Assembly (NCBI GenBank): GCA_018263355.1
Contig: JAANXH010000045.1
Coordinates: 1 to 51,237 of the forward strand
Length of the DNA stretch: 51,237 nucleotides
Direction of reading: 5' to 3'
Origin: Candidatus Woesearchaeota archaeon
GTDB taxonomy: Archaea > Nanobdellota > Nanobdellia > Woesearchaeales > JAGVZT01
The notes under the pieces were generated by a model. It saw only the letters and a program-made list of their open reading frames with translations. It had not been told where the DNA came from and did not search any database. The position numbers and the translations under genes were made by a program. Positions 1 to 45,567 of this stretch are shown piece by piece (the first letter of the stretch is position 1; the number at the start of each line of letters is the position of its first letter).

Positions 1-176
1 ACATTTTCAAGTTCCGAAAAAGTGGTAGTCAAAGCAGAGGCGACAATACCCCACATCATGTCACTAACGTTCCTGACCTTAAGCATAGCTTAAGGCTTTA
101 TTGTGGGGATCGGTGCTTTTAGGCACCCACCGAACACAGTGACTGTGAGCCTCTGCACCACTTTTTAGTTATTTTA
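1..176 (-). ncRNA. Structured RNA motif A, copy 1 (runs off the left window edge)
   Basis: 171/176 nt identical to 2344-2519. Closing stem GCAGAGGC/GCCTCTGC (34-156) with several internal hairpins; non-coding and GC-richer than its flanks. Confidence 0.7.
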
Positions 177-185
177 CTATTAATT

Positions 186-356
186 ATGATTATATCTACT
201 GGATGCGGGACAGATTCTAACCATAGTTTAACTGAAACAGATACTAACTCACTTGAAGGTTCTTGCATTAGTGGTGGTTGATGCACTTCTCCTGGATGTG
301 GTCAGTGGATAGACCAAAACAAAGATGGTGCTTGTGACAGAGGTATAAAAACATAA
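186..356 (+). pseudogene. Small Cys-rich, lipoprotein-like ORF interrupted by an in-frame TGA
   Basis: Reads MIISTGCG...CISGG*CTSPGCGQWIDQNKDGACDRGIKT with TGA at 279-281. The Cys/DxNxDGxCD pattern continues across the stop. Confidence 0.5.
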
Positions 357-381
357 ATACTAATTTTTATTGTTTAAAAAA

Positions 382-1617
382 TTAGTTTCTATTGTTATGT
401 TTTTTGTGTTTTTTTCTGCGTCTGTTTTTATGTCTTTTATGCCTTCGCCTTTTTTTGTGATGATGTCTTCTACCTCGTCTCCTATTTGGAACCCATCTAA
501 CTTTTCTTCTTTTGACTTGTGGCATTTGTTCTTTTTTAATATCTAAAGAAAAATCCCTAAGGATTCTAGAAAAACTCCTGTGGTCTCTTTCTGCCAGCAA
601 TGTGATTGCTTTTCCTTTTTCCCCTGCACGAGCAGTTCTCCCGATTCTATGAACGTATCTTTTACTTTCTCTTGGAAGATCATAATTATATACATGAGTT
701 ATATCATCTATATCTAAACCTCGAGCTGCAACATCTGTGCATACTAAAACATTCACTCTTTGGCTTTTAAAGCTTCTCATTGTTCTTTCACGTTTTGCTT
801 GTGAATACCCCCCATGGATTGCTATTGCATTTATTCCATAAGATTTAAGATTTTTGCTGATAAAATCAACTGTTTTTCTGGTATTACAAAATACCATTAC
901 TAACTCTGCGTCTTCATGCTCCAATAAATGGACAAGTAATGAGAATTTTAGATTTTTTGGCACATCAATATATGATTGTTTTAAATCTCTTGGATCTACC
1001 AAAGGTGTTCCAGATATCTTTACCTGATGGTCCATATATTTTTTTGCAAGTCTGCTAATTTCTGGCCTAATTGTTGCACTAAATAGCAGTGTTTGCCGAT
1101 CTTTTGGACACTTGCAAATTATTTGCTCTACATCATCAATAAATCCCATGTCAAGCATCCGGTCAGCTTCATCCAAAACTACAATATTTACATAGTCTAA
1201 ATTCATAGTTCTTCTTTGAAGATGATCGAGTGTTCTTCCAGGTGTTCCCACAACTATATCTGTTCCTTTTAGTTTATGAATCTGCCTGTTAATTGAAACA
1301 CCACCATAAACTGGCAGTACTTTTAATCCTGAGAACTTGGATAGTTTTCTTATTGCTTTTGCAACCTGATTTGCTAGTTCTCTGGTTGGAACAAGAATTA
1401 TTGCCTGCACCCCATTTCCTTTTTCGCATTTGTTAATTACTCCTGATGCAAATGCAAGTGTTTTACCAGATCCAGTTGCTGATCCAGCAATTACATCGTT
1501 TCCTTGCATAATCTCTGGAATTGATTTTTCCTGTATTAATGTTGGTTTTTCAAAACCTAATTTATTTATTGATTTGAGCATAGGTTTACATACTCCTAAT
1601 TGTTTAAATGTTTTCAT
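382..1617 (-). CDS. DEAD-box RNA helicase (DeaD/CshA-like) with a basic C-terminal tail
   Basis: Q motif, ATGSGKT, PTRELA, TPGR, DEAD, SAT, ARGLD and HRIGRTAR motifs; R/K/H-rich tail. Confidence 0.97.
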   Translation of the reverse strand: MKTFKQLGVCKPMLKSINKLGFEKPTLIQEKSIPEIMQGNDVIAGSATGSGKTLAFASGVINKCEKGNGVQAIILVPTRELANQVAKAIRKLSKFSGLKVLPVYGGVSINRQIHKLKGTDIVVGTPGRTLDHLQRRTMNLDYVNIVVLDEADRMLDMGFIDDVEQIICKCPKDRQTLLFSATIRPEISRLAKKYMDHQVKISGTPLVDPRDLKQSYIDVPKNLKFSLLVHLLEHEDAELVMVFCNTRKTVDFISKNLKSYGINAIAIHGGYSQAKRERTMRSFKSQRVNVLVCTDVAARGLDIDDITHVYNYDLPRESKRYVHRIGRTARAGEKGKAITLLAERDHRSFSRILRDFSLDIKKEQMPQVKRRKVRWVPNRRRGRRHHHKKRRRHKRHKNRRRKKHKKHNNRN

Positions 1618-1801
1618 TTTTATCTTACCTCATTATGTTAAGAAAAAGTCAATTAAAATAATAATAATTTCAATGCTTTTTCTTTTCAACTATTCAGCCT
1701 TTGTACTTTAGATTATAAATCAACACATTTTAATGTATTTTCAGAAAAAGCACATTGCTGTTTATTCTTTCTTTATTCTGATAACAAGAAGTAGCCTAAA
1801 G

Positions 1802-1820
1802 TTACTTATAAGTGTTTGGG
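1802..1820 (-). promoter_or_regulatory. BRE/TATA promoter of the helicase (long 5' leader)
   Basis: Minus strand CCCAAACACTTATAAGTAA; near-identical to the element at 3157-3175. Confidence 0.5.
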
Positions 1821-1907
1821 TTTTATTACTGATTTTTAACAAAAATAAGTGATATTACGCTAAACAACATATATTTTTGTGTTTTAAATATAACTAGAAC
1901 AATATTA

Positions 1908-2321
1908 CTGCATAACGAAAATCTGCGGTGAGGAGCAATCCCCATAATAAATTATGGGGTTTTTAACACTCCTCACTTTTACTTAGAATGCGTTGGGTCT
2001 AAATGTCAGGACTATTCGTCCTGATCATGCTCAGGAAGGTACGCTTCCCGACAGCCCCTGACTTATCTCACTAGCGTTCCTAACACATAAATCATAGATT
2101 TCTGACATTTAACCAGTAGCATTGTAATGCAGTCACTCCACACATTCGTGTTTTGTTCGGCATCCATAAGCTTTGCTTCTGGAGTCTGAAAAGCTATCGT
2201 AAGATAGCTGCCGAGTGAACAAAGTGAACGAATGCATCTGCTTGTCAAAGGGAAGAGTGCAAAAGCCCCCGCCTTTAGGCGATGGGATTAACTCTTCACA
2301 GCAGATTTTCTTTACATGCAG
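1908..2321 (-). ncRNA. ~410-nt highly structured non-coding element closed by ~28-bp imperfect inverted repeats
   Basis: 1908-1935 pairs with 2292-2321. Many internal hairpins (CCCCATAAT/ATTATGGGG, TCAGGAC/GTCCTGA, AGCTATC/GATAGCT, CGCC-TTTA-GGCG). Contains a diverged motif-A core at 2064-2144. Confidence 0.65.
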
Positions 2322-2343
2322 ATTTTCTGACTGAAAATCTTTC

Positions 2344-2519
2344 ACATTTTCAAGTTCCGAAAAAGTGGTAGTCAAAGCAGAGGCGACAATACCCCACATC
2401 ATGTCACTAACGTTCCTGACCTTAGGCATAGCTTAAGGCTTTAGTGTGGGGATTGGTGCTTTTAGGCACCCACCGAACACAGTGACCGTGAGCCTCTGCA
2501 CCCCTTTTTAGTTATTTTA
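2344..2519 (-). ncRNA. Structured RNA motif A, copy 2
   Basis: Near-identical to 1-176 and homologous to 34308-34432. Closing stem 2377-2384/2492-2499. Confidence 0.7.
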
Positions 2520-2588: not shown

Positions 2589-2894
2589 CTATTTTTTCTT
2601 TTTCTTCTTTTTGGACTTCTTCTTACTTTTCTTTTTCTTTTTTGATTTCTTTTTCTTTGATTTACTCTTCTTACTTTTCTTTTTTTTCTTTTCTTCGTTA
2701 TCCTTGTTTATTCTATAGTCATGGTCATACTTTTTGTAGCATTTTTTGCAATATAGTTTTGCATGGTATTTTGATGTGTAATAATCAGATTTTTTATTTA
2801 CTGTGAATGTTTTTCCACAAACTATACATTTTGCTCTTCTTTTAAAGCATTTCCCATTATCGTTTTTTTTTATTTTAGCATGCATTTTTTTCAA
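2589..2894 (-). CDS. Zn-finger protein (CxxC...CxxC, resembling the CxxC-x17-CxxC family) with a Lys/Ser-rich tail
   Basis: AKCIVCGK...LYCKKCY followed by a poly-K/KS tail; probably binds nucleic acid. Confidence 0.75.
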   Translation of the reverse strand: MKKMHAKIKKNDNGKCFKRRAKCIVCGKTFTVNKKSDYYTSKYHAKLYCKKCYKKYDHDYRINKDNEEKKKKKSKKSKSKKKKSKKKKKSKKKSKKKKKKK

Positions 2895-34135: not shown

Positions 34136-34307
34136 ACTGCACCTCTTTTTTAAAAAAAGTGAATTTTCTCACTTTTTCTATATATAAATTTATAATACAA
34201 TTATAACTAGGTATACATTTTGACTCATTAAATATATAAATGTTTGTATTTTCAACTGTTCATCTGATACTTCTTGAGGAGTTTTTATAATGGTAGCCAA
34301 TGCAAGG

Positions 34308-34432
34308 AAAAAGTGGCACAGATGCTCACAGTCACTGTGTTCAGTGAGTTGCTCTGGCAACCATACACTGAAGGTTTCAGCTACGCTGAAATTTAGGAAC
34401 ATTAGTGACATGATGTAGGGTATTATACCCCA
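34308..34432 (+). ncRNA. Structured RNA motif A, copy 3 (diverged)
   Basis: Shares AAAAAGTGG, GCTCACAGTCACTGTGTTC-GTG and AGGAAC-TTAGTGACATGATGT-GGGTATT with the reverse complement of copies 1 and 2; TTTTATAA at 34283-34290. Confidence 0.7.
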
Positions 34433-34606
34433 TAGAAAATCCCTCAATGCGTGATTTTCAATAATCTATTTTTCATGAGGAAAAATGCTTATATAATAAA
34501 AGACCAATTTTACAAAACATTTAGGCTTTAGCATGCTAATTAAGTGATTTTGAGTATTTTTCGAAAGGTTTATATATTCATTTTATCAATTAAAGTAGTT
34601 AGAGGG

Positions 34607-36749: not shown

Positions 36750-36859
36750 GCCTCTGTAGCATAGTGGTGGTGCGTAGCCTTGGTATGTTCAACTTGTTAT
36801 TTAAAGCGAGTTGAGCGACATAAAGGCTAAGGTCCCGAGTTCAAGTCTCGGCAGAGGCT
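36750..36859 (+). tRNA. tRNA-Thr(GGT) with a 38-nt anticodon-loop intron (~36786-36823)
   Basis: Acceptor GCCTCTG/CAGAGGC-T; anticodon stem TAGCC/GGCTA with GGT at 36782-36784; T arm CCGAG-TTCAAGT-CTCGG. Confidence 0.88.
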
Positions 36860-37983: not shown

Positions 37984-38898
37984 ATGCCTTTGGAGAATAA
38001 TGTGTCTAACAAAAAACTGGTCCAATATATTAAGGATACACTAAAAAAAGGGTTTAGCAAAGCAGATATAGAAAACGCGCTCTTACAGAGAGGTTATACT
38101 GAAGATACTATAAGACAAGCTTTTCTTCAAGTTAACTCTAGAAATACTAATTTTACAAAAACAAACAAAGCAGTCAAAAATAAACAGTACAAACCACCAA
38201 ATAAAAAAGCTAATAAATCTGTTAAAACTAACATACCAAATAAAAAATATGGTCTGCCGATTGCAGCATTTATTTTATCTTTGATTCCTGTTTTTTCGTT
38301 AATCGGATTAATCTTAGGAATTGTGAGTTTAGTTAAAATCAAGAAAAACCCTGCACTAAAGGGAAAGGGTTTTGCTATTGCTGCGATTGTGATAAGTTCA
38401 TTAGGTTTAATTTTCACTGCTTTAGTTTTTGGTTTAGGTCTTAGTTTTGTCAGAAATGTTTTCGGTCCTAGTTTACAAGAACCACACATGCTTGATATTG
38501 GTAAGCAAACATTAATTGAAAACCCACCAACACAAGACAAACCTTTCACTTTATCTAAAGCAGAATTATTTTTAATGTTAGGAGAAGAATTAACTATCAA
38601 TGCAGGTTTTTATAATAAATTTAATGAATCAGTTGAATCAAGTTTGGATATTCATAGTTGTTATACTAAAGGTAAAGATACTACAGACCAAATTAGTTTT
38701 ACAACAACACAATCTAAGGAAGTTGCAGCCAATGATACGGTGGCATTTCCAGCAATTATTACAGCTTCAAAAACAGCATCTTCTGCAATACATGCTTGTA
38801 CTTTAGTTATTACAGCAAAACCAATTGGTTCTCAAAATGAAGAAGAGAAATTTTATCAAGACATATTAATTACTATTAAATCCAATATCTCAGAATAA
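37984..38898 (+). CDS. DUF4190-like membrane protein with an extracellular domain
   Basis: N-terminal LVQYIK..L.KG helical domain and two TMs with KGKGFAIAA. Confidence 0.75.
   Translation: MPLENNVSNKKLVQYIKDTLKKGFSKADIENALLQRGYTEDTIRQAFLQVNSRNTNFTKTNKAVKNKQYKPPNKKANKSVKTNIPNKKYGLPIAAFILSLIPVFSLIGLILGIVSLVKIKKNPALKGKGFAIAAIVISSLGLIFTALVFGLGLSFVRNVFGPSLQEPHMLDIGKQTLIENPPTQDKPFTLSKAELFLMLGEELTINAGFYNKFNESVESSLDIHSCYTKGKDTTDQISFTTTQSKEVAANDTVAFPAIITASKTASSAIHACTLVITAKPIGSQNEEEKFYQDILITIKSNISE
38237..38384 (+). repeat. 148-bp direct repeat, copy 1 (copy 2 at 39204-39351)
   Basis: 146/148 identical, covering the TM module of the two paralogues. Confidence 0.9.
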
Positions 38899-38944: not shown

Positions 38945-39709
38945 GTGGCTGACCAACAGCTTGTTGAATACATTAAAAATACACTAAAGAAAGGGTTTAC
39001 TCAACCTGAAATAGAAAGAGTTCTTTTTGATAATGGTTATTCTAAAGATGATGTTAGCCAAGCTTTTTTAGAAGCATATAGTAACCAAAATTTAAATGCT
39101 GAAGAAAAACCAAAAAAACGAACAAGTAAAATACACACACAAGTACCAATTAAATCATCTAAGCAAAAAAACAAAAATAATTCTCACACGAAAAAAGTCA
39201 AGTCAAATAAAAAATATGGTCTGCCGATTGCAGCATTTGTTTTATCTTTGATTCCTGTTATTTCGTTAATCGGATTAATCTTAGGAATTGTGAGTTTAGT
39301 TAAAATCAAGAAAAACCCTGCACTAAAGGGAAAGGGTTTTGCTATTGCTGCCCTGATTATTAGTATTATCAATATTATTCTTATAATAGTGGGTGTATTA
39401 ATGGTTTTACCACTCTTTTTAGCAGCATCAAGAATGAGAAGTTTTGGAGGGAATTTTTCTTATTTAACAGAATCTAATCCTATTAGCGCAGATTCCTGTG
39501 CTTCTTTAGAAGGATTTTCTAAAGATATGTGTCTTATAAAAGCAGCAAAAGACCAAGGAGATGTGGGTATTTGTGATAGTCTATCTAACTCCCTACAGAA
39601 AAAAGATTGTATTCAAACTGTAGCTATTGAAACAAAAAATCCAGACCTTTGCAGTTTAATAGAAGATAGTGCTGCAAGTGAAAAATGTTTGAGTTATGTT
39701 ACTAGATAA
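38945..39709 (+). CDS. DUF4190-like membrane protein with Cys-repeat C-terminus
   Basis: Same N-terminal and TM modules as its neighbour; C-terminal D...C..L.....K..C repeats. Confidence 0.75.
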   Translation: MADQQLVEYIKNTLKKGFTQPEIERVLFDNGYSKDDVSQAFLEAYSNQNLNAEEKPKKRTSKIHTQVPIKSSKQKNKNNSHTKKVKSNKKYGLPIAAFVLSLIPVISLIGLILGIVSLVKIKKNPALKGKGFAIAALIISIINIILIIVGVLMVLPLFLAASRMRSFGGNFSYLTESNPISADSCASLEGFSKDMCLIKAAKDQGDVGICDSLSNSLQKKDCIQTVAIETKNPDLCSLIEDSAASEKCLSYVTR

Positions 39710-40349: not shown

Positions 40350-40505
40350 GGGCTCGTGGTCTAGTGGCTACAACTTCGGTTGCCATAGATGATATCGCCT
40401 TGACGTGGCGGAGGTCCCCGGTTCAAAGCGATCTTTTTGGTAAAAAACTCGACCAAAAATTGGAGTTGCTATGCAACTCATTCGTTGAAAGTCCGGGCGG
40501 GCCCA
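40350..40505 (+). tRNA. tRNA-Val(GAC) with D-loop (40370-40388) and T-loop 59/60 (40428-40491) introns
   Basis: Acceptor GGGCTCG/CGGGCCC-A; GAC at 40402-40404; central helices GTGG/CCAT and TTCA/TGAA flanked by 3-nt bulges. Confidence 0.9.
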
Positions 40506-45203: not shown

Positions 45204-45270
45204 GCTATATTTACTATTTAGATTGTTTTAATTTAAAAATATATTGTAAAATAGGCAATCTTAAATATCG

Positions 45271-45426
45271 AGTGTTAGCTCCATTAGTGCCTGATTTGAG
45301 TGAAGGAGACAATCCTAGTCGTAAGAGTCAGTGGGGAACAGTTTGCCTTAATCAAATTAAACTCCACACAATATGAATGATGGTTTAGCAAACTGGCGAC
45401 TGAACCGGTATTATGGAGCTAACATT
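45271..45426 (+). ncRNA. Structured RNA motif B, copy 2
   Basis: Terminal stem TGTTAGCTCCAT/ATGGAGCTAACA; internal blocks shared with 36481-36628. Confidence 0.68.
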
Positions 45427-45567
45427 AGGTTGACTTTGCCTGTAAAATATGATGCTTTGCAAAAGCTGTATTTTTTACTCATTGGACATCTAGTAATTCT
45501 CATCTAACTGATTGATTTAACCGAAAATTATATATATCACAAATATTTACTTACTGGTGGTGGAGAC

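What the first reader, a model, noticed from the sequence alone, without database searches (positions are those of the whole stretch)
1..2519. Multi-copy structured RNA family (motif A) bracketing a DEAD-box helicase: candidate undescribed RNA/RNP system
Seen in sequence: a ~125-nt motif occurs at 34-156 (-), 2377-2499 (-) and 34313-34432 (+). Its consensus is AAAAAG-GG..CAGA.GCTCAC-GTCACTGTGTTCRGTG-[hairpin]-..-[hairpin around CTAYG]-YAGGAACRTTAGTGACATGATGTRGGGTATT. Loops are conserved while hairpin stems change compensatorily (GGTGC/GCACC vs GTTGC/GCAAC; CCTTAAGC/GCTTAAGG vs TTTCAGC/GCTGAAA), and GTCACT can pair with AGTGAC. Each copy has a TATA-like box ~25-30 nt upstream. Copies 1 and 2 are 97% identical, co-oriented, and sit on either side of the helicase gene; a Lys-rich Zn-finger gene lies directly upstream of copy 2. 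I do not recognise it as tRNA, rRNA, SRP or RNase P RNA. Inference: an independently transcribed ncRNA family, possibly catalytic or mobile, with the helicase and Zn-finger protein as candidate partners.
Basis: partly seen in the sequence, partly recalled or inferred. Interest (0 to 1): 0.9.

Follow-up and report, generated by a model that had tools for sequence, protein, structure and literature searches.

The report
Modular hairpin repeat, not helicase RNA
The motif is real, but it is one branch of a large family of short, hairpin-rich repeats scattered through this tiny archaeal genome, most likely non-autonomous mobile DNA, and it has no special tie to the helicase gene it happens to bracket.

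Summary
Observation confirmed; interpretation mostly not. The three copies sit where stated. They are 3 of about 24 copies in a 1.17 Mb, 60-contig Nanobdellota-like genome. Of 120 contig ends, 47 stop in repeats with 5 or more copies.

Each copy has inverted terminal arms, a sharp 5' boundary and 1-3 swappable hairpin modules. Short forms keep the arms and one small central hairpin. One copy has its core flipped.

No Rfam family matches. The 34 flanking ORFs share no family. The helicase orthologue in the sister species has no repeat beside it. Upstream TATA-like boxes are not enriched: 5 of 24 copies against a 24% background.

Base pairing and compensatory changes are real but come largely from module swapping.

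The core, a hairpin followed by GGAACGNNAGTGA, recurs in other families of the same order. There it sits inside elements with unrelated arms and, in some genomes, beside tRNA genes.

Best reading: a MITE-like modular repeat family carrying a conserved module of unknown function. Transcription could not be tested.

The parts
17..174 (-). Motif A copy 1, full unit: conserved 8-nt lead (AAATAACT), 5' arm (149-166), one hairpin module, core module X with the 13-mer W (61-73), and 3' arm (17-41). Bases 1-16 are the start of the shared tail, cut by the contig end.
2360..2517 (-). Motif A copy 2, full unit: 5' arm at 2492-2509, W at 2404-2416, 3' arm at 2360-2384. It is 97% identical to copy 1.
2321..2359 (-). 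Tail module that follows the 3' arm. The same tail follows copies on other contigs (C1, C23, C17, C43, C53, C50, C37).
1909..2317 (-). Motif B, a second interspersed repeat of about 400 nt. Best other copy is C47:16007-16385 at 97%; others lie on C2, C38, C7, C45, C14, C31 and C27. It carries its own hairpin + W unit (W at 2068-2080).
34300..34472 (+). Motif A copy 3, a diverged subfamily (about 76% identity). It has the 5' arm, one hairpin module and module X (W at 34396-34408). It lacks the inverted 3' arm and ends in a terminal hairpin followed by ..TTTTCAATAA.
382..1617 (-). DEAD-box helicase gene (Pfam DEAD + Helicase_C) lying between copies 1 and 2. I read it as a bystander, not part of the element.
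2589..2894 (-). Lys-rich Cys-rich small protein gene upstream of copy 2. Its only Pfam hit is a sub-threshold DUF7445 match and it has no paralogue in the genome. I read it as a bystander.

Best explanation
Motif A is one subfamily of a genome-wide population of short, non-coding, modular palindromic repeats. They behave like miniature inverted-repeat (MITE-like) non-autonomous mobile DNA.

ANATOMY (shown)
- A unit has a conserved lead (AAATAACT).
- Next comes an 18-nt 5' arm whose inverted copy forms the 3' arm.
- Between the arms lie 1-3 interchangeable hairpin modules.
- The core is 'module X': a short closing helix around a 7-8 bp hairpin, followed by a conserved stretch T(C/T)AGGAACG(T/C)(T/A)AGTGA, here called W. 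In the wider W family this stretch has no evident pairing partner.

BEHAVIOUR
- Copies spread to unrelated intergenic sites (shown).
- They lose or swap internal modules by recombination (inferred from the short forms, multi-module forms and one copy with an inverted core).
- They break the assembly (shown).

WHAT DRIVES SPREAD (inferred)
- The arms appear to be the part needed for spread. Arm-bearing short forms that lack W are themselves multi-copy here, and arm-only forms are multi-copy in another genome.
- The hairpin + W module is conserved cargo. It occurs between unrelated arms in other families of the same order.
- W therefore probably serves as a recognition site for a trans-acting factor, on single-stranded nucleic acid (RNA or ssDNA).

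The helicase and Zn-finger genes are chance neighbours. The enzyme that moves the elements was not found.
For: COPY NUMBER AND PLACEMENT
- 31 BLAST matches in the genome.
- About 24 intact 5' ends.
- 16 units have a 5' end and a W core within 340 nt, one of them a composite.
- There are 122 repeat islands with 5 or more copies, totalling 30.4 kb, on 47 of 60 contigs.
- 47 of 120 contig ends stop in such repeats.
- Only 11% of island bases overlap crude ORFs, whereas about 85% of the genome does.

DISCRETE UNIT
- All copies begin at the same base. Flank conservation starts at -8 and upstream flanks are unrelated.
- Copies 97-100% identical lie beside unrelated genes.

INVERTED ARMS AND DERIVATIVES
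- The 5' AAAAAGTGGTGCAGAGGC arm pairs with GCCTCTGC..ACCACTTTTT.
- Four near-identical short forms (C58, C22, C48, C37) keep the arms and one small central hairpin.
- Three to four copies carry 2-3 hairpin modules.
- C50:7270-7359 has its core inverted relative to the arms.

NO CODING CAPACITY, NO LINKED GENE
- The 34 flanking ORFs share no family.
- Orientation relative to the neighbouring gene is mixed: 14 co-oriented against 8 divergent, by my count.

NOT SYNTENIC
- The G001 helicase locus has no repeat.
- The family was detectable by BLAST only in the same genus among 41 relatives.

SAME CARGO, DIFFERENT ARMS ELSEWHERE
- W count is 39 in this genome against 0 for the reversed control.
- W is also enriched in G012 (9 vs 1), G108 (7 vs 0), G299 (10 vs 1), G257, G043, G302 and G332. 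The maximum is 3 in other orders of the class.
- G108 copies sit antisense inside the top6B-top6A and atpB-atpA spacers. In this genome top6B and top6A abut.
- G299 has a ~153-nt element with perfect 13-bp inverted ends, flanked by TA by eye. It also has 11 arm-only 43-nt forms.

IN PRINT
- One passage of PMC11602168 reports 'a Woesearchaea genome' among the highest MITE densities in archaea (only that passage was read).
Against: - No target-site duplication was found. The 74 internal islands have no flanking direct repeat of 11 nt or more, and the mean longest shared word equals the control. Short duplications cannot be resolved because AATAA occurs at both ends of every composite.
- No autonomous partner was found. 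There is no Y1 transposase and no TnpB above cut-off.
- The one DDE transposase is a single degenerate IS5-like copy with unrelated ends.
- No W'..ORF..W arrangement exists in the genome.
- No filled-versus-empty pair was shown for this genome itself.
- W lies internally, not at the termini, which is unusual for a transposase site.
- Features that lean towards function as a single strand: the motif-sense strand folds more stably than its complement in 15 of 16 copies (mean -57.8 against -53.3 kcal/mol, though the copies are related).
- There are many G-U pairs in the sense fold.
- Helix P1 shows two-sided changes.
- The motif's own CTAAAAAG resembles boxes seen at about -25 to -31 upstream of this genome's tRNA genes, and the 3' arm ends in T5. 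A transcription unit is therefore conceivable (by eye).
Confidence: 0.6

Rival explanations
1. An independently transcribed, functional structured ncRNA family. Each copy would be a small RNA gene using the A-rich 5' end of the repeat as its promoter box and the T5 run in the 3' arm as its terminator. The RNA would fold into the multi-helix structure, with W as a protein- or RNA-binding site.
For: - 94.8% of cells are paired in 11 copies, and 6 pairs show two-sided changes. No shuffle in 500 reaches the observed values.
- Module X is 92.8% paired, with two-sided changes in P1 and the hairpin.
- The sense strand is more stable than the antisense in 15 of 16 copies.
- CTAAAAAG-like boxes lie at -25 to -31 upstream of tRNA genes, and tRNA genes end in T-runs.
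- W with an upstream hairpin is conserved across families of the order.
Against: - No Rfam match.
- No upstream promoter enrichment.
- The arms are symmetric, so the same 'promoter' and 'terminator' words occur on both strands.
- Short forms lacking W and most helices are themselves multi-copy.
- One copy has the core inverted relative to the arms.
- Copies are not syntenic with the sister species.
- Two-sided changes come mainly from swapping whole modules among related copies, which the shuffle control does not correct for.
- Hairpins upstream of W show no G-U excess on the sense strand: 51 against 52.
Confidence: 0.2
2. Hairpin elements mobilised as single-stranded DNA by an HUH-type enzyme, in the manner of REP/RAYT or IS200/IS605-derived elements. 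The hairpin + W would be the recognition and cleavage unit. This contrasts with TIR-dependent cut-and-paste MITEs.
For: - A predicted helix ends within 4 nt upstream of W in 44 of 49 distinct units. This is my count from the fold strings; no control was run.
- W is mostly unpaired. An upstream complement is no more frequent than in shuffles, 6.74 against 6.82.
- No TSD was detected.
- The organisation is mosaic, with modules in alternating orientation, like BIMEs (the BIME comparison is recalled).
- There is a mild sense-strand stability bias.
Against: - No Y1 transposase match in the genome at E<=0.01, in a 99.96%-complete assembly.
- W-less forms that keep the arms have multiplied here, and arm-only forms have multiplied in G299.
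- The G299 element has perfect inverted ends flanked by TA, typical of cut-and-paste MITEs (by eye).
Confidence: 0.1
3. Intron-like elements removed from transcripts by the tRNA-splicing endonuclease. They would be mobile bulge-helix-bulge introns that also sit in intergenic transcripts.
For: - In G012 a hairpin + W unit is the 41-nt insert in the T-loop of a tRNA gene and forms a perfect h-B-H-B-h' motif. After in-silico removal ARAGORN recognises a tRNA.
- This genome has 22 candidate tRNA genes with T-loop inserts drawn from two repeat families.
Against: - Canonical BHB motifs around W are not enriched: 16 of 67 units against a mean of 18.9 in shuffles.
- Motif A offers only a 4-nt bulge plus a 4x5 internal loop around GTCA/TGAC (by eye).
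- The T-loop inserts share no blastn-short similarity with motif A, its tail or motif B.
- Flanks of motif A are not exons of any recognisable RNA.
Confidence: 0.05

Closest known systems
Bacterial MITEs with internal-deletion and modular variants, such as Correia/NEMIS elements of Neisseria and BOX elements of Streptococcus pneumoniae (recalled, not tested here)
   Same: - 100-250 nt, non-coding, with inverted ends.
- Dozens of intergenic copies.
- Short forms that lack internal parts.
- Modular build.
- Predicted long hairpin when transcribed.
   Different: - No TSD was shown here and no cognate transposase found.
- The host is an archaeon.
- A conserved internal hairpin + 13-mer module is shared with elements that have unrelated ends in other families of the order.
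Computationally catalogued prokaryotic MITEs (cMITEs), PMC11602168.
   Same: The paper reports that a Woesearchaeal genome has one of the highest MITE densities among archaea (105 per Mb), consistent with what is seen here.
   Different: I could not check whether this family is in their tables. The passage says nothing about sequence, structure or the W module.
REP/BIME elements and their RAYT transposase; IS200/IS605-derived palindromic elements (recalled)
   Same: - A hairpin next to a short conserved single-stranded word.
- Mosaic clusters of units in both orientations.
- No TSD.
   Different: - No Y1 (HUH) transposase was found in this genome.
- The units here are embedded between longer inverted arms.
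Mobile tRNA introns of Thermoproteales, meaning related introns at non-canonical positions in different tRNA genes (recalled, not read here)
   Same: - The same genome carries two repeat families that occupy the T-loop of 22 candidate tRNA genes with BHB geometry.
- One W unit in G012 is such an intron.
   Different: Motif A itself lies in intergenic DNA, has no canonical BHB, and shares no detectable sequence with the T-loop inserts.

Membership tests
MITE (miniature inverted-repeat transposable element) | Short (under about 500 bp) and non-coding | tested here: met
   Units are 120-250 nt. The only ORFs across them are spurious and not conserved between copies.
MITE (miniature inverted-repeat transposable element) | Terminal inverted repeats | tested here: met
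   An 18-nt 5' arm and its inverted copy, the latter interrupted by 7 nt, are present in copies 1 and 2 and at least 10 others. They are absent from the diverged subfamily that includes copy 3.
MITE (miniature inverted-repeat transposable element) | Many dispersed, mostly intergenic copies with sharp common boundaries | tested here: met
MITE (miniature inverted-repeat transposable element) | Target-site duplication | tested here: inconclusive
   No flanking direct repeat of 11 nt or more at 74 islands, and the mean equals the control. Short TSDs are masked by AATAA at both composite ends. The related G299 element is flanked by TA (by eye).
MITE (miniature inverted-repeat transposable element) | A cognate autonomous element with the same ends | tested here: not met
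   - Y1_Tnp: none.
- TnpB Zn-ribbon: sub-threshold only.
- DDE_Tnp_1: one degenerate IS5-like copy with other ends.
- No arm or W pairs flank an ORF here or in G299.

Only three transposase families were searched.
MITE (miniature inverted-repeat transposable element) | Presence/absence polymorphism at orthologous sites | tested here: inconclusive
   - The G108 top6B-top6A spacer holds an element, whereas the two genes abut in this genome.
- The G001 helicase locus is repeat-free but not syntenic.
- The PdxS locus could not be compared because the gene was not found in 5 relatives.
Any described RNA family (Rfam 15) | Covariance-model match | tested here: not met
   - Gathering thresholds on the window gave only a tRNA.
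- E<=10 on 1-2600 gave five weak non-credible hits.
- E<=1 on 20 other loci with copies (43 kb) gave one tRNA and three sub-threshold hits.
Independent structured ncRNA gene | Conserved secondary structure with covariation | tested here: inconclusive
   Pairing is 93-95% with two-sided changes. The sequences are close paralogues and the changes are module swaps. No phylogeny-aware test was run.
Independent structured ncRNA gene | Own promoter at a fixed distance | tested here: not met
   Upstream TATA-like words occur in 5 of 24 copies against a 24% background. An internal A-rich box remains possible.
Independent structured ncRNA gene | Discrete transcript | not testable with these tools
   No run could be listed for this sequence.
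Archaeal BHB intron | Bulge(3)-helix(4)-bulge(3) at both ends, flanked by helices | tested here: not met
   16 of 67 W units against 18.9 in shuffles. It is met only for the G012 tRNA insert.
REP/RAYT or IS200/IS605-derived element | HUH Y1 transposase in the genome | tested here: not met
   PF01797 gave no match at E<=0.01, while the control genomes rang.
TnpB/IscB guide RNA (omega RNA) | Adjacent TnpB/IscB gene | tested here: not met
   PF07282 gave one sub-threshold hit (16.9 bits against a cut-off of 26.3) on C31, not next to a copy.

The most novel reading that the evidence does not exclude
The hairpin + GGAACGNNAGTGA unit is a self-standing functional module, an RNA or ssDNA recognition element for a still unknown protein. 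It would have been carried for a long time as cargo by unrelated MITE-like frames in one order of Nanobdellota. In some lineages it would insert at, or be captured next to, the T-loop or 3' end of tRNA genes, once as a bona fide BHB intron. Motif A would then be the most amplified known vehicle of a new kind of tRNA-linked mobile RNA/DNA module rather than just another MITE.
Probability: 0.15. Interest if true: 0.75.

Novelty: new variant of a known kind. Interest (0 to 1): 0.45.

Why it matters
DPANN/Nanobdellota genomes are small and thought to be streamlined. Yet here 5% of the assembled bases are repeated, about 2.6% are high-copy, and two in five contig ends stop in hairpin repeats. These elements therefore shape both genome structure and assembly quality.

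A 13-nt word with an adjacent hairpin is conserved across families while everything around it changes. This points to an unknown trans-acting factor and would be a handle for finding it.

For annotation, the practical message is that such motifs should not be called RNA genes or paired with neighbouring proteins from a single window.

The side finding may matter more. Two thirds of the recognisable tRNA genes in this genome seem to carry T-loop inserts from two repeat families. That bears on how archaeal tRNA introns spread and on why tRNA counts in such MAGs look too low.

Tried and rejected
- Expression: the look-up of sequencing runs with window:1-10000, kind rna. No RNA holder was listed and none could be listed.
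- Homologues by exact words:
  - An 18-mer of the 5' arm in genome contigs gave 13 single hits in unrelated taxa. About 17 are expected by chance for 596 Gb by my arithmetic, so I read them as chance.
  - A 21-mer of the core in metagenome contigs gave one coding chance hit.
  - Two IMG/VR scans gave 5 and 8 hits, all in unrelated contexts without the element.
- Covariance model R1 (module X) found strong matches only in the same-genus genome G001: 6 matches, best 77.7 bits. Matches in G108, G109 and G043 were weak and G012 had none. I did not build a broader model because MAFFT could not align hairpins of different lengths. Alignment A4 contains spurious rows and was not used.
- The BHB-intron idea for the whole family was rejected.
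- The idea that W pairs with an upstream complement was rejected outside motif A.
- The tRNA-likeness of motif A (an acceptor-like arm sharing a 10-mer with the window's tRNA) is judged compatible with chance, about 0.3 expected by my estimate. It was not pursued.
- K-turn, ORB, attC, dif and coding-remnant readings of W were considered by eye and dropped for lack of fit. None was tested.
- Empty-site test at the C33 tRNA-PdxS locus: PdxS was not found in 5 relatives.
- My first scan for T-loop-interrupted tRNAs was far too permissive (1,059 hits) and was discarded. The stricter scan was used.
- ARAGORN recognised a tRNA after in-silico removal of the insert in 1 of the 3 cases tried.
They may list this family.
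This call repeats it with the field added.
Full report
WHAT IS THERE

Copy 2 is 97% identical to copy 1 and copy 3 about 76%. Rfam finds nothing at these places. This holds at gathering thresholds over the whole window, where the only hit is an intron-containing tRNA at 36750-36859. It holds at E<=10 over 1-2600. It also holds at E<=1 over 20 other loci that carry copies, 43 kb in all.

THE WINDOW IS NOT THE RIGHT SCALE

The window is contig C40 of a 1,167,524-base assembly in 60 contigs with 32% G+C. The nearest protein-atlas cluster of the helicase is archaeal, most commonly Nanobdellota. The 131-nt motif has 31 BLAST matches in this genome. About 24 intact 5' ends exist. Sixteen units have both the 5' end and the core, one of them a composite.

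Many copies sit at the very ends of contigs. A self-comparison of the genome shows the following.
- 60,562 bases (5.2%) have at least one other copy.
- There are 122 islands with 5 or more copies, 30.4 kb in total, on 47 of 60 contigs.
- 47 of 120 contig ends terminate in such an island.
- Only 11% of island bases overlap crude ORFs, although about 85% of the genome does.

Window 1909-2317(-), between copy 2 and the helicase gene, is a second family (motif B) with many copies elsewhere.

ANATOMY

All copies start at the same base. Flanks are unrelated up to position -8, and then AAATAACT and the 18-nt 5' arm follow. In copies 1 and 2 and at least ten others, a 3' arm is the inverted repeat of the 5' arm, interrupted by 7 nt.

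Between the arms lie, in order:
- a segment GTCACTgtGTTC;
- one of three alternative hairpin modules;
- the core 'module X'.

Some copies carry two or three hairpin modules in tandem. Module X is a closing helix P1 (CCCCACA/TGTGGGG) around a 7-8 bp hairpin with a 3-nt loop, followed by T(C/T)AGGAACG(T/C)(T/A)AGTGA, here called W.

Three kinds of variant stand out.
- Four nearly identical short forms (C58, C22, C48, C37) keep only the arms and the P1 hairpin.
- One copy (C50:7270-7359) has its core inverted relative to the arms.
- Copy 3 belongs to a diverged subfamily without the 3' arm. It ends in a terminal hairpin followed by ..TTTTCAATAA.

Tails and other modules follow in varying combinations, so the islands are mosaics.

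STRUCTURE

On 11 single-module copies, 94.8% of cells pair in the structure I wrote and 6 pairs show two-sided changes. None of 500 shuffles reaches the observed values, and slid controls fall to 28-46%. RNAalifold gives a nested alternative in which CTCACA pairs with TGTGGG.

On 20 module X copies, 92.8% of cells pair. P1 shows CG/UA and AU/GC exchanges.

These figures need caution. The sequences are close paralogues, and the changes in the first hairpin are swaps among three ready-made modules.

The motif-sense strand folds more stably than its complement in 15 of 16 copies, -57.8 against -53.3 kcal/mol. This weakly favours function as a single strand. The hairpins next to W show no G-U excess on that strand, 51 against 52.

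THE PROPOSED PARTNERS

The helicase is an ordinary DEAD/Helicase_C protein. The Lys-rich protein has only a sub-threshold DUF7445 hit. Several results argue against a partnership.
- Among the 34 ORFs that flank 24 5' ends, no family recurs.
- The Zn protein has no paralogue.
- The helicase orthologue of the same-genus genome G001 (60% identity) has 38-60-nt repeat-free flanks and different neighbours.
- No other gene in the genome is bracketed in this way, apart from a 4.7-kb stretch on C7.
- Orientation relative to the neighbouring gene is mixed, 14 against 8 by my count.
- TATA-like words at -45 to -19 occur in 5 of 24 copies against 24% of random intergenic 27-mers.

BEYOND THIS GENOME

BLAST finds the family only in G001 among 41 relatives. 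The single G008 match is an A/T-rich chance hit by eye. Model R1 finds 6 matches in G001, the best at 77.7 bits.

The 13-mer W, however, is enriched in several other families of the same order.
- In 151 genomes of the order, this genome has 39 (reversed control 0), G012 has 9 (control 1), G108 has 7 (0) and G043 has 4 (0).
- In 401 genomes of the phylum, G299 has 10 (1), G257 has 5 (0), and G302 and G332 have 4 (0) each. No genome from other orders of the class exceeds 3.

In the MFE folds of 49 distinct units, a helix ends within 4 nt upstream of W in 44. This is my count, and no control was run. The hairpin sequences are unrelated between genomes.

The frames around the module differ by lineage.
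- G108 has about 170-nt elements with AATTTGCA/TGCAAATT ends. They lie antisense in the top6B-top6A and atpB-atpA spacers. In this genome top6B and top6A abut.
- G299 has a ~153-nt element with perfect 13-bp inverted ends flanked by TA (by eye). It carries three W-like words. The genome also has 11 arm-only 43-nt forms and no pair of ends at IS-like distance.

Arms therefore differ by lineage while the hairpin + W is shared. Forms without W also multiply.

THE tRNA LEADS

Several W units in other genomes lie at tRNA genes.
- In G012, one W unit is the 41-nt insert in the T-loop of a tRNA gene and forms a perfect bulge-helix-bulge motif. After in-silico removal ARAGORN calls a tRNA.
- Another G012 unit follows a complete tRNA-Arg and is followed by a 19-nt copy of the tRNA 3' end.
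- In G332, all 4 W hits lie about 50 nt from four different tRNA genes. Each has a 12-19-nt direct copy of that tRNA's 3' end on the far side of the unit.

For the family as a whole these ideas fail.
- Canonical BHB motifs are not enriched: 16 of 67 against 18.9 in shuffles.
- An upstream complement of W is not enriched: 6.74 against 6.82.
- No long flanking direct repeats exist at 74 islands in this genome.

WHAT MOVES THEM

This is unknown. There is no Y1 transposase and no TnpB above cut-off. The one DDE transposase is a degenerate, single-copy IS5-like element with unrelated ends. No arm or W pairs flank an ORF. No copies occur on IMG/VR contigs. Only three transposase families were searched.

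VERDICT

The reading as an RNA/RNP system with the helicase does not.

The best-supported explanation (about 0.6) is a MITE-like, modular, recombining family of non-autonomous repeats that carries a conserved hairpin + 13-mer module. An expressed functional RNA remains possible (about 0.2) and is not exclusive with mobility.

One printed passage notes very high MITE density in a Woesearchaeal genome (PMC11602168; only that passage was read). Two literature searches found no description of this family or of the W module. The searches were narrow, so I do not claim that it is absent from print.

Noticed in passing
window 40350-40505 (+), and 21 further places in G000 listed: Candidate tRNA genes whose T-loop is interrupted after TTC[AG]AA by a 49-190-nt insert. 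Each insert ends in GAAAGT just before the complementary T-stem strand, a 7-nt acceptor strand and usually a T-rich run. 20 of 22 have a matching acceptor 5' strand upstream. The geometry fits a BHB, with UUCA/UGAA as the 4-bp helix. The Rfam tRNA model finds only 11 tRNAs in this 99.96%-complete genome. The inserts form two repeat families of about 9-10 copies each. After in-silico removal, ARAGORN called a tRNA in 1 of 3 cases.
   Followed up: partly
window 1909-2317 (-): Motif B, a separate repeat of about 400 nt. Its best copy is 97% identical on C47, with many others elsewhere. It has its own hairpin + W unit and a closing helix (CTGGYT/AGYCAG) that shows G-U and two-sided changes between copies.
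   Followed up: partly
window 45223-45453: Another repeat island reaching 24 other copies. It looks unlike motif A or B and was not analysed.
   Followed up: no
window 36750-36859 (+): A tRNA gene with an insert of about 40 nt in the anticodon loop. The Rfam model finds it (53 bits), default ARAGORN misses it, and ARAGORN finds it once introns are allowed.
   Followed up: partly
L137-L140 (G332), L136 (G302), L077 (G012): Hairpin + W units lie next to tRNA genes with a 12-19-nt direct copy of the tRNA 3' end (3' terminus to T-loop) on the far side. In G332 and G302, W is followed by 5-6 nt and then GTTCGAATCC (GTTCGAATAC in one of the four G332 units). The pattern looks like insertion with a long duplication, or integrase-type capture at the T-loop. 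It is unexplained.
   Followed up: partly
L127-L135 (G299), and G299 places: An element of about 153 nt with perfect 13-bp inverted ends flanked by TA and three W-like words. There are also 11 copies of a 43-nt form made of the two ends only. No pair of ends lies at IS-like distance.
   Followed up: partly
L126 (G201:C16:23700-24173): A tRNA 5' part that stops in the T-loop. It is followed by an insert and then at least three tandem 81-nt units. Each unit holds a tRNA 3'-exon-like piece and a W word. The stretch is cut by the contig end.
   Followed up: no
G000:C58:13790-14760 (L042): A single degenerate IS5-like DDE transposase gene with one in-frame TGA and GGCTCTGTCCA-type inverted ends. 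It is inserted between two paralogous methyltransferase-like genes, 1.5 kb from a short motif A form. Its ends are unrelated to motif A.
   Followed up: partly
window 38002-38384 and 38945-39351: A pair of ~400-nt segments that match each other or one other place (one other copy). They were not examined.
   Followed up: no
G000 whole genome: V-type ATPase A and B subunits of G108 found no tblastn match in G000 at E<=1e-30, whereas top6A and top6B did. They were not found with this query, and absence is not shown.
   Followed up: no
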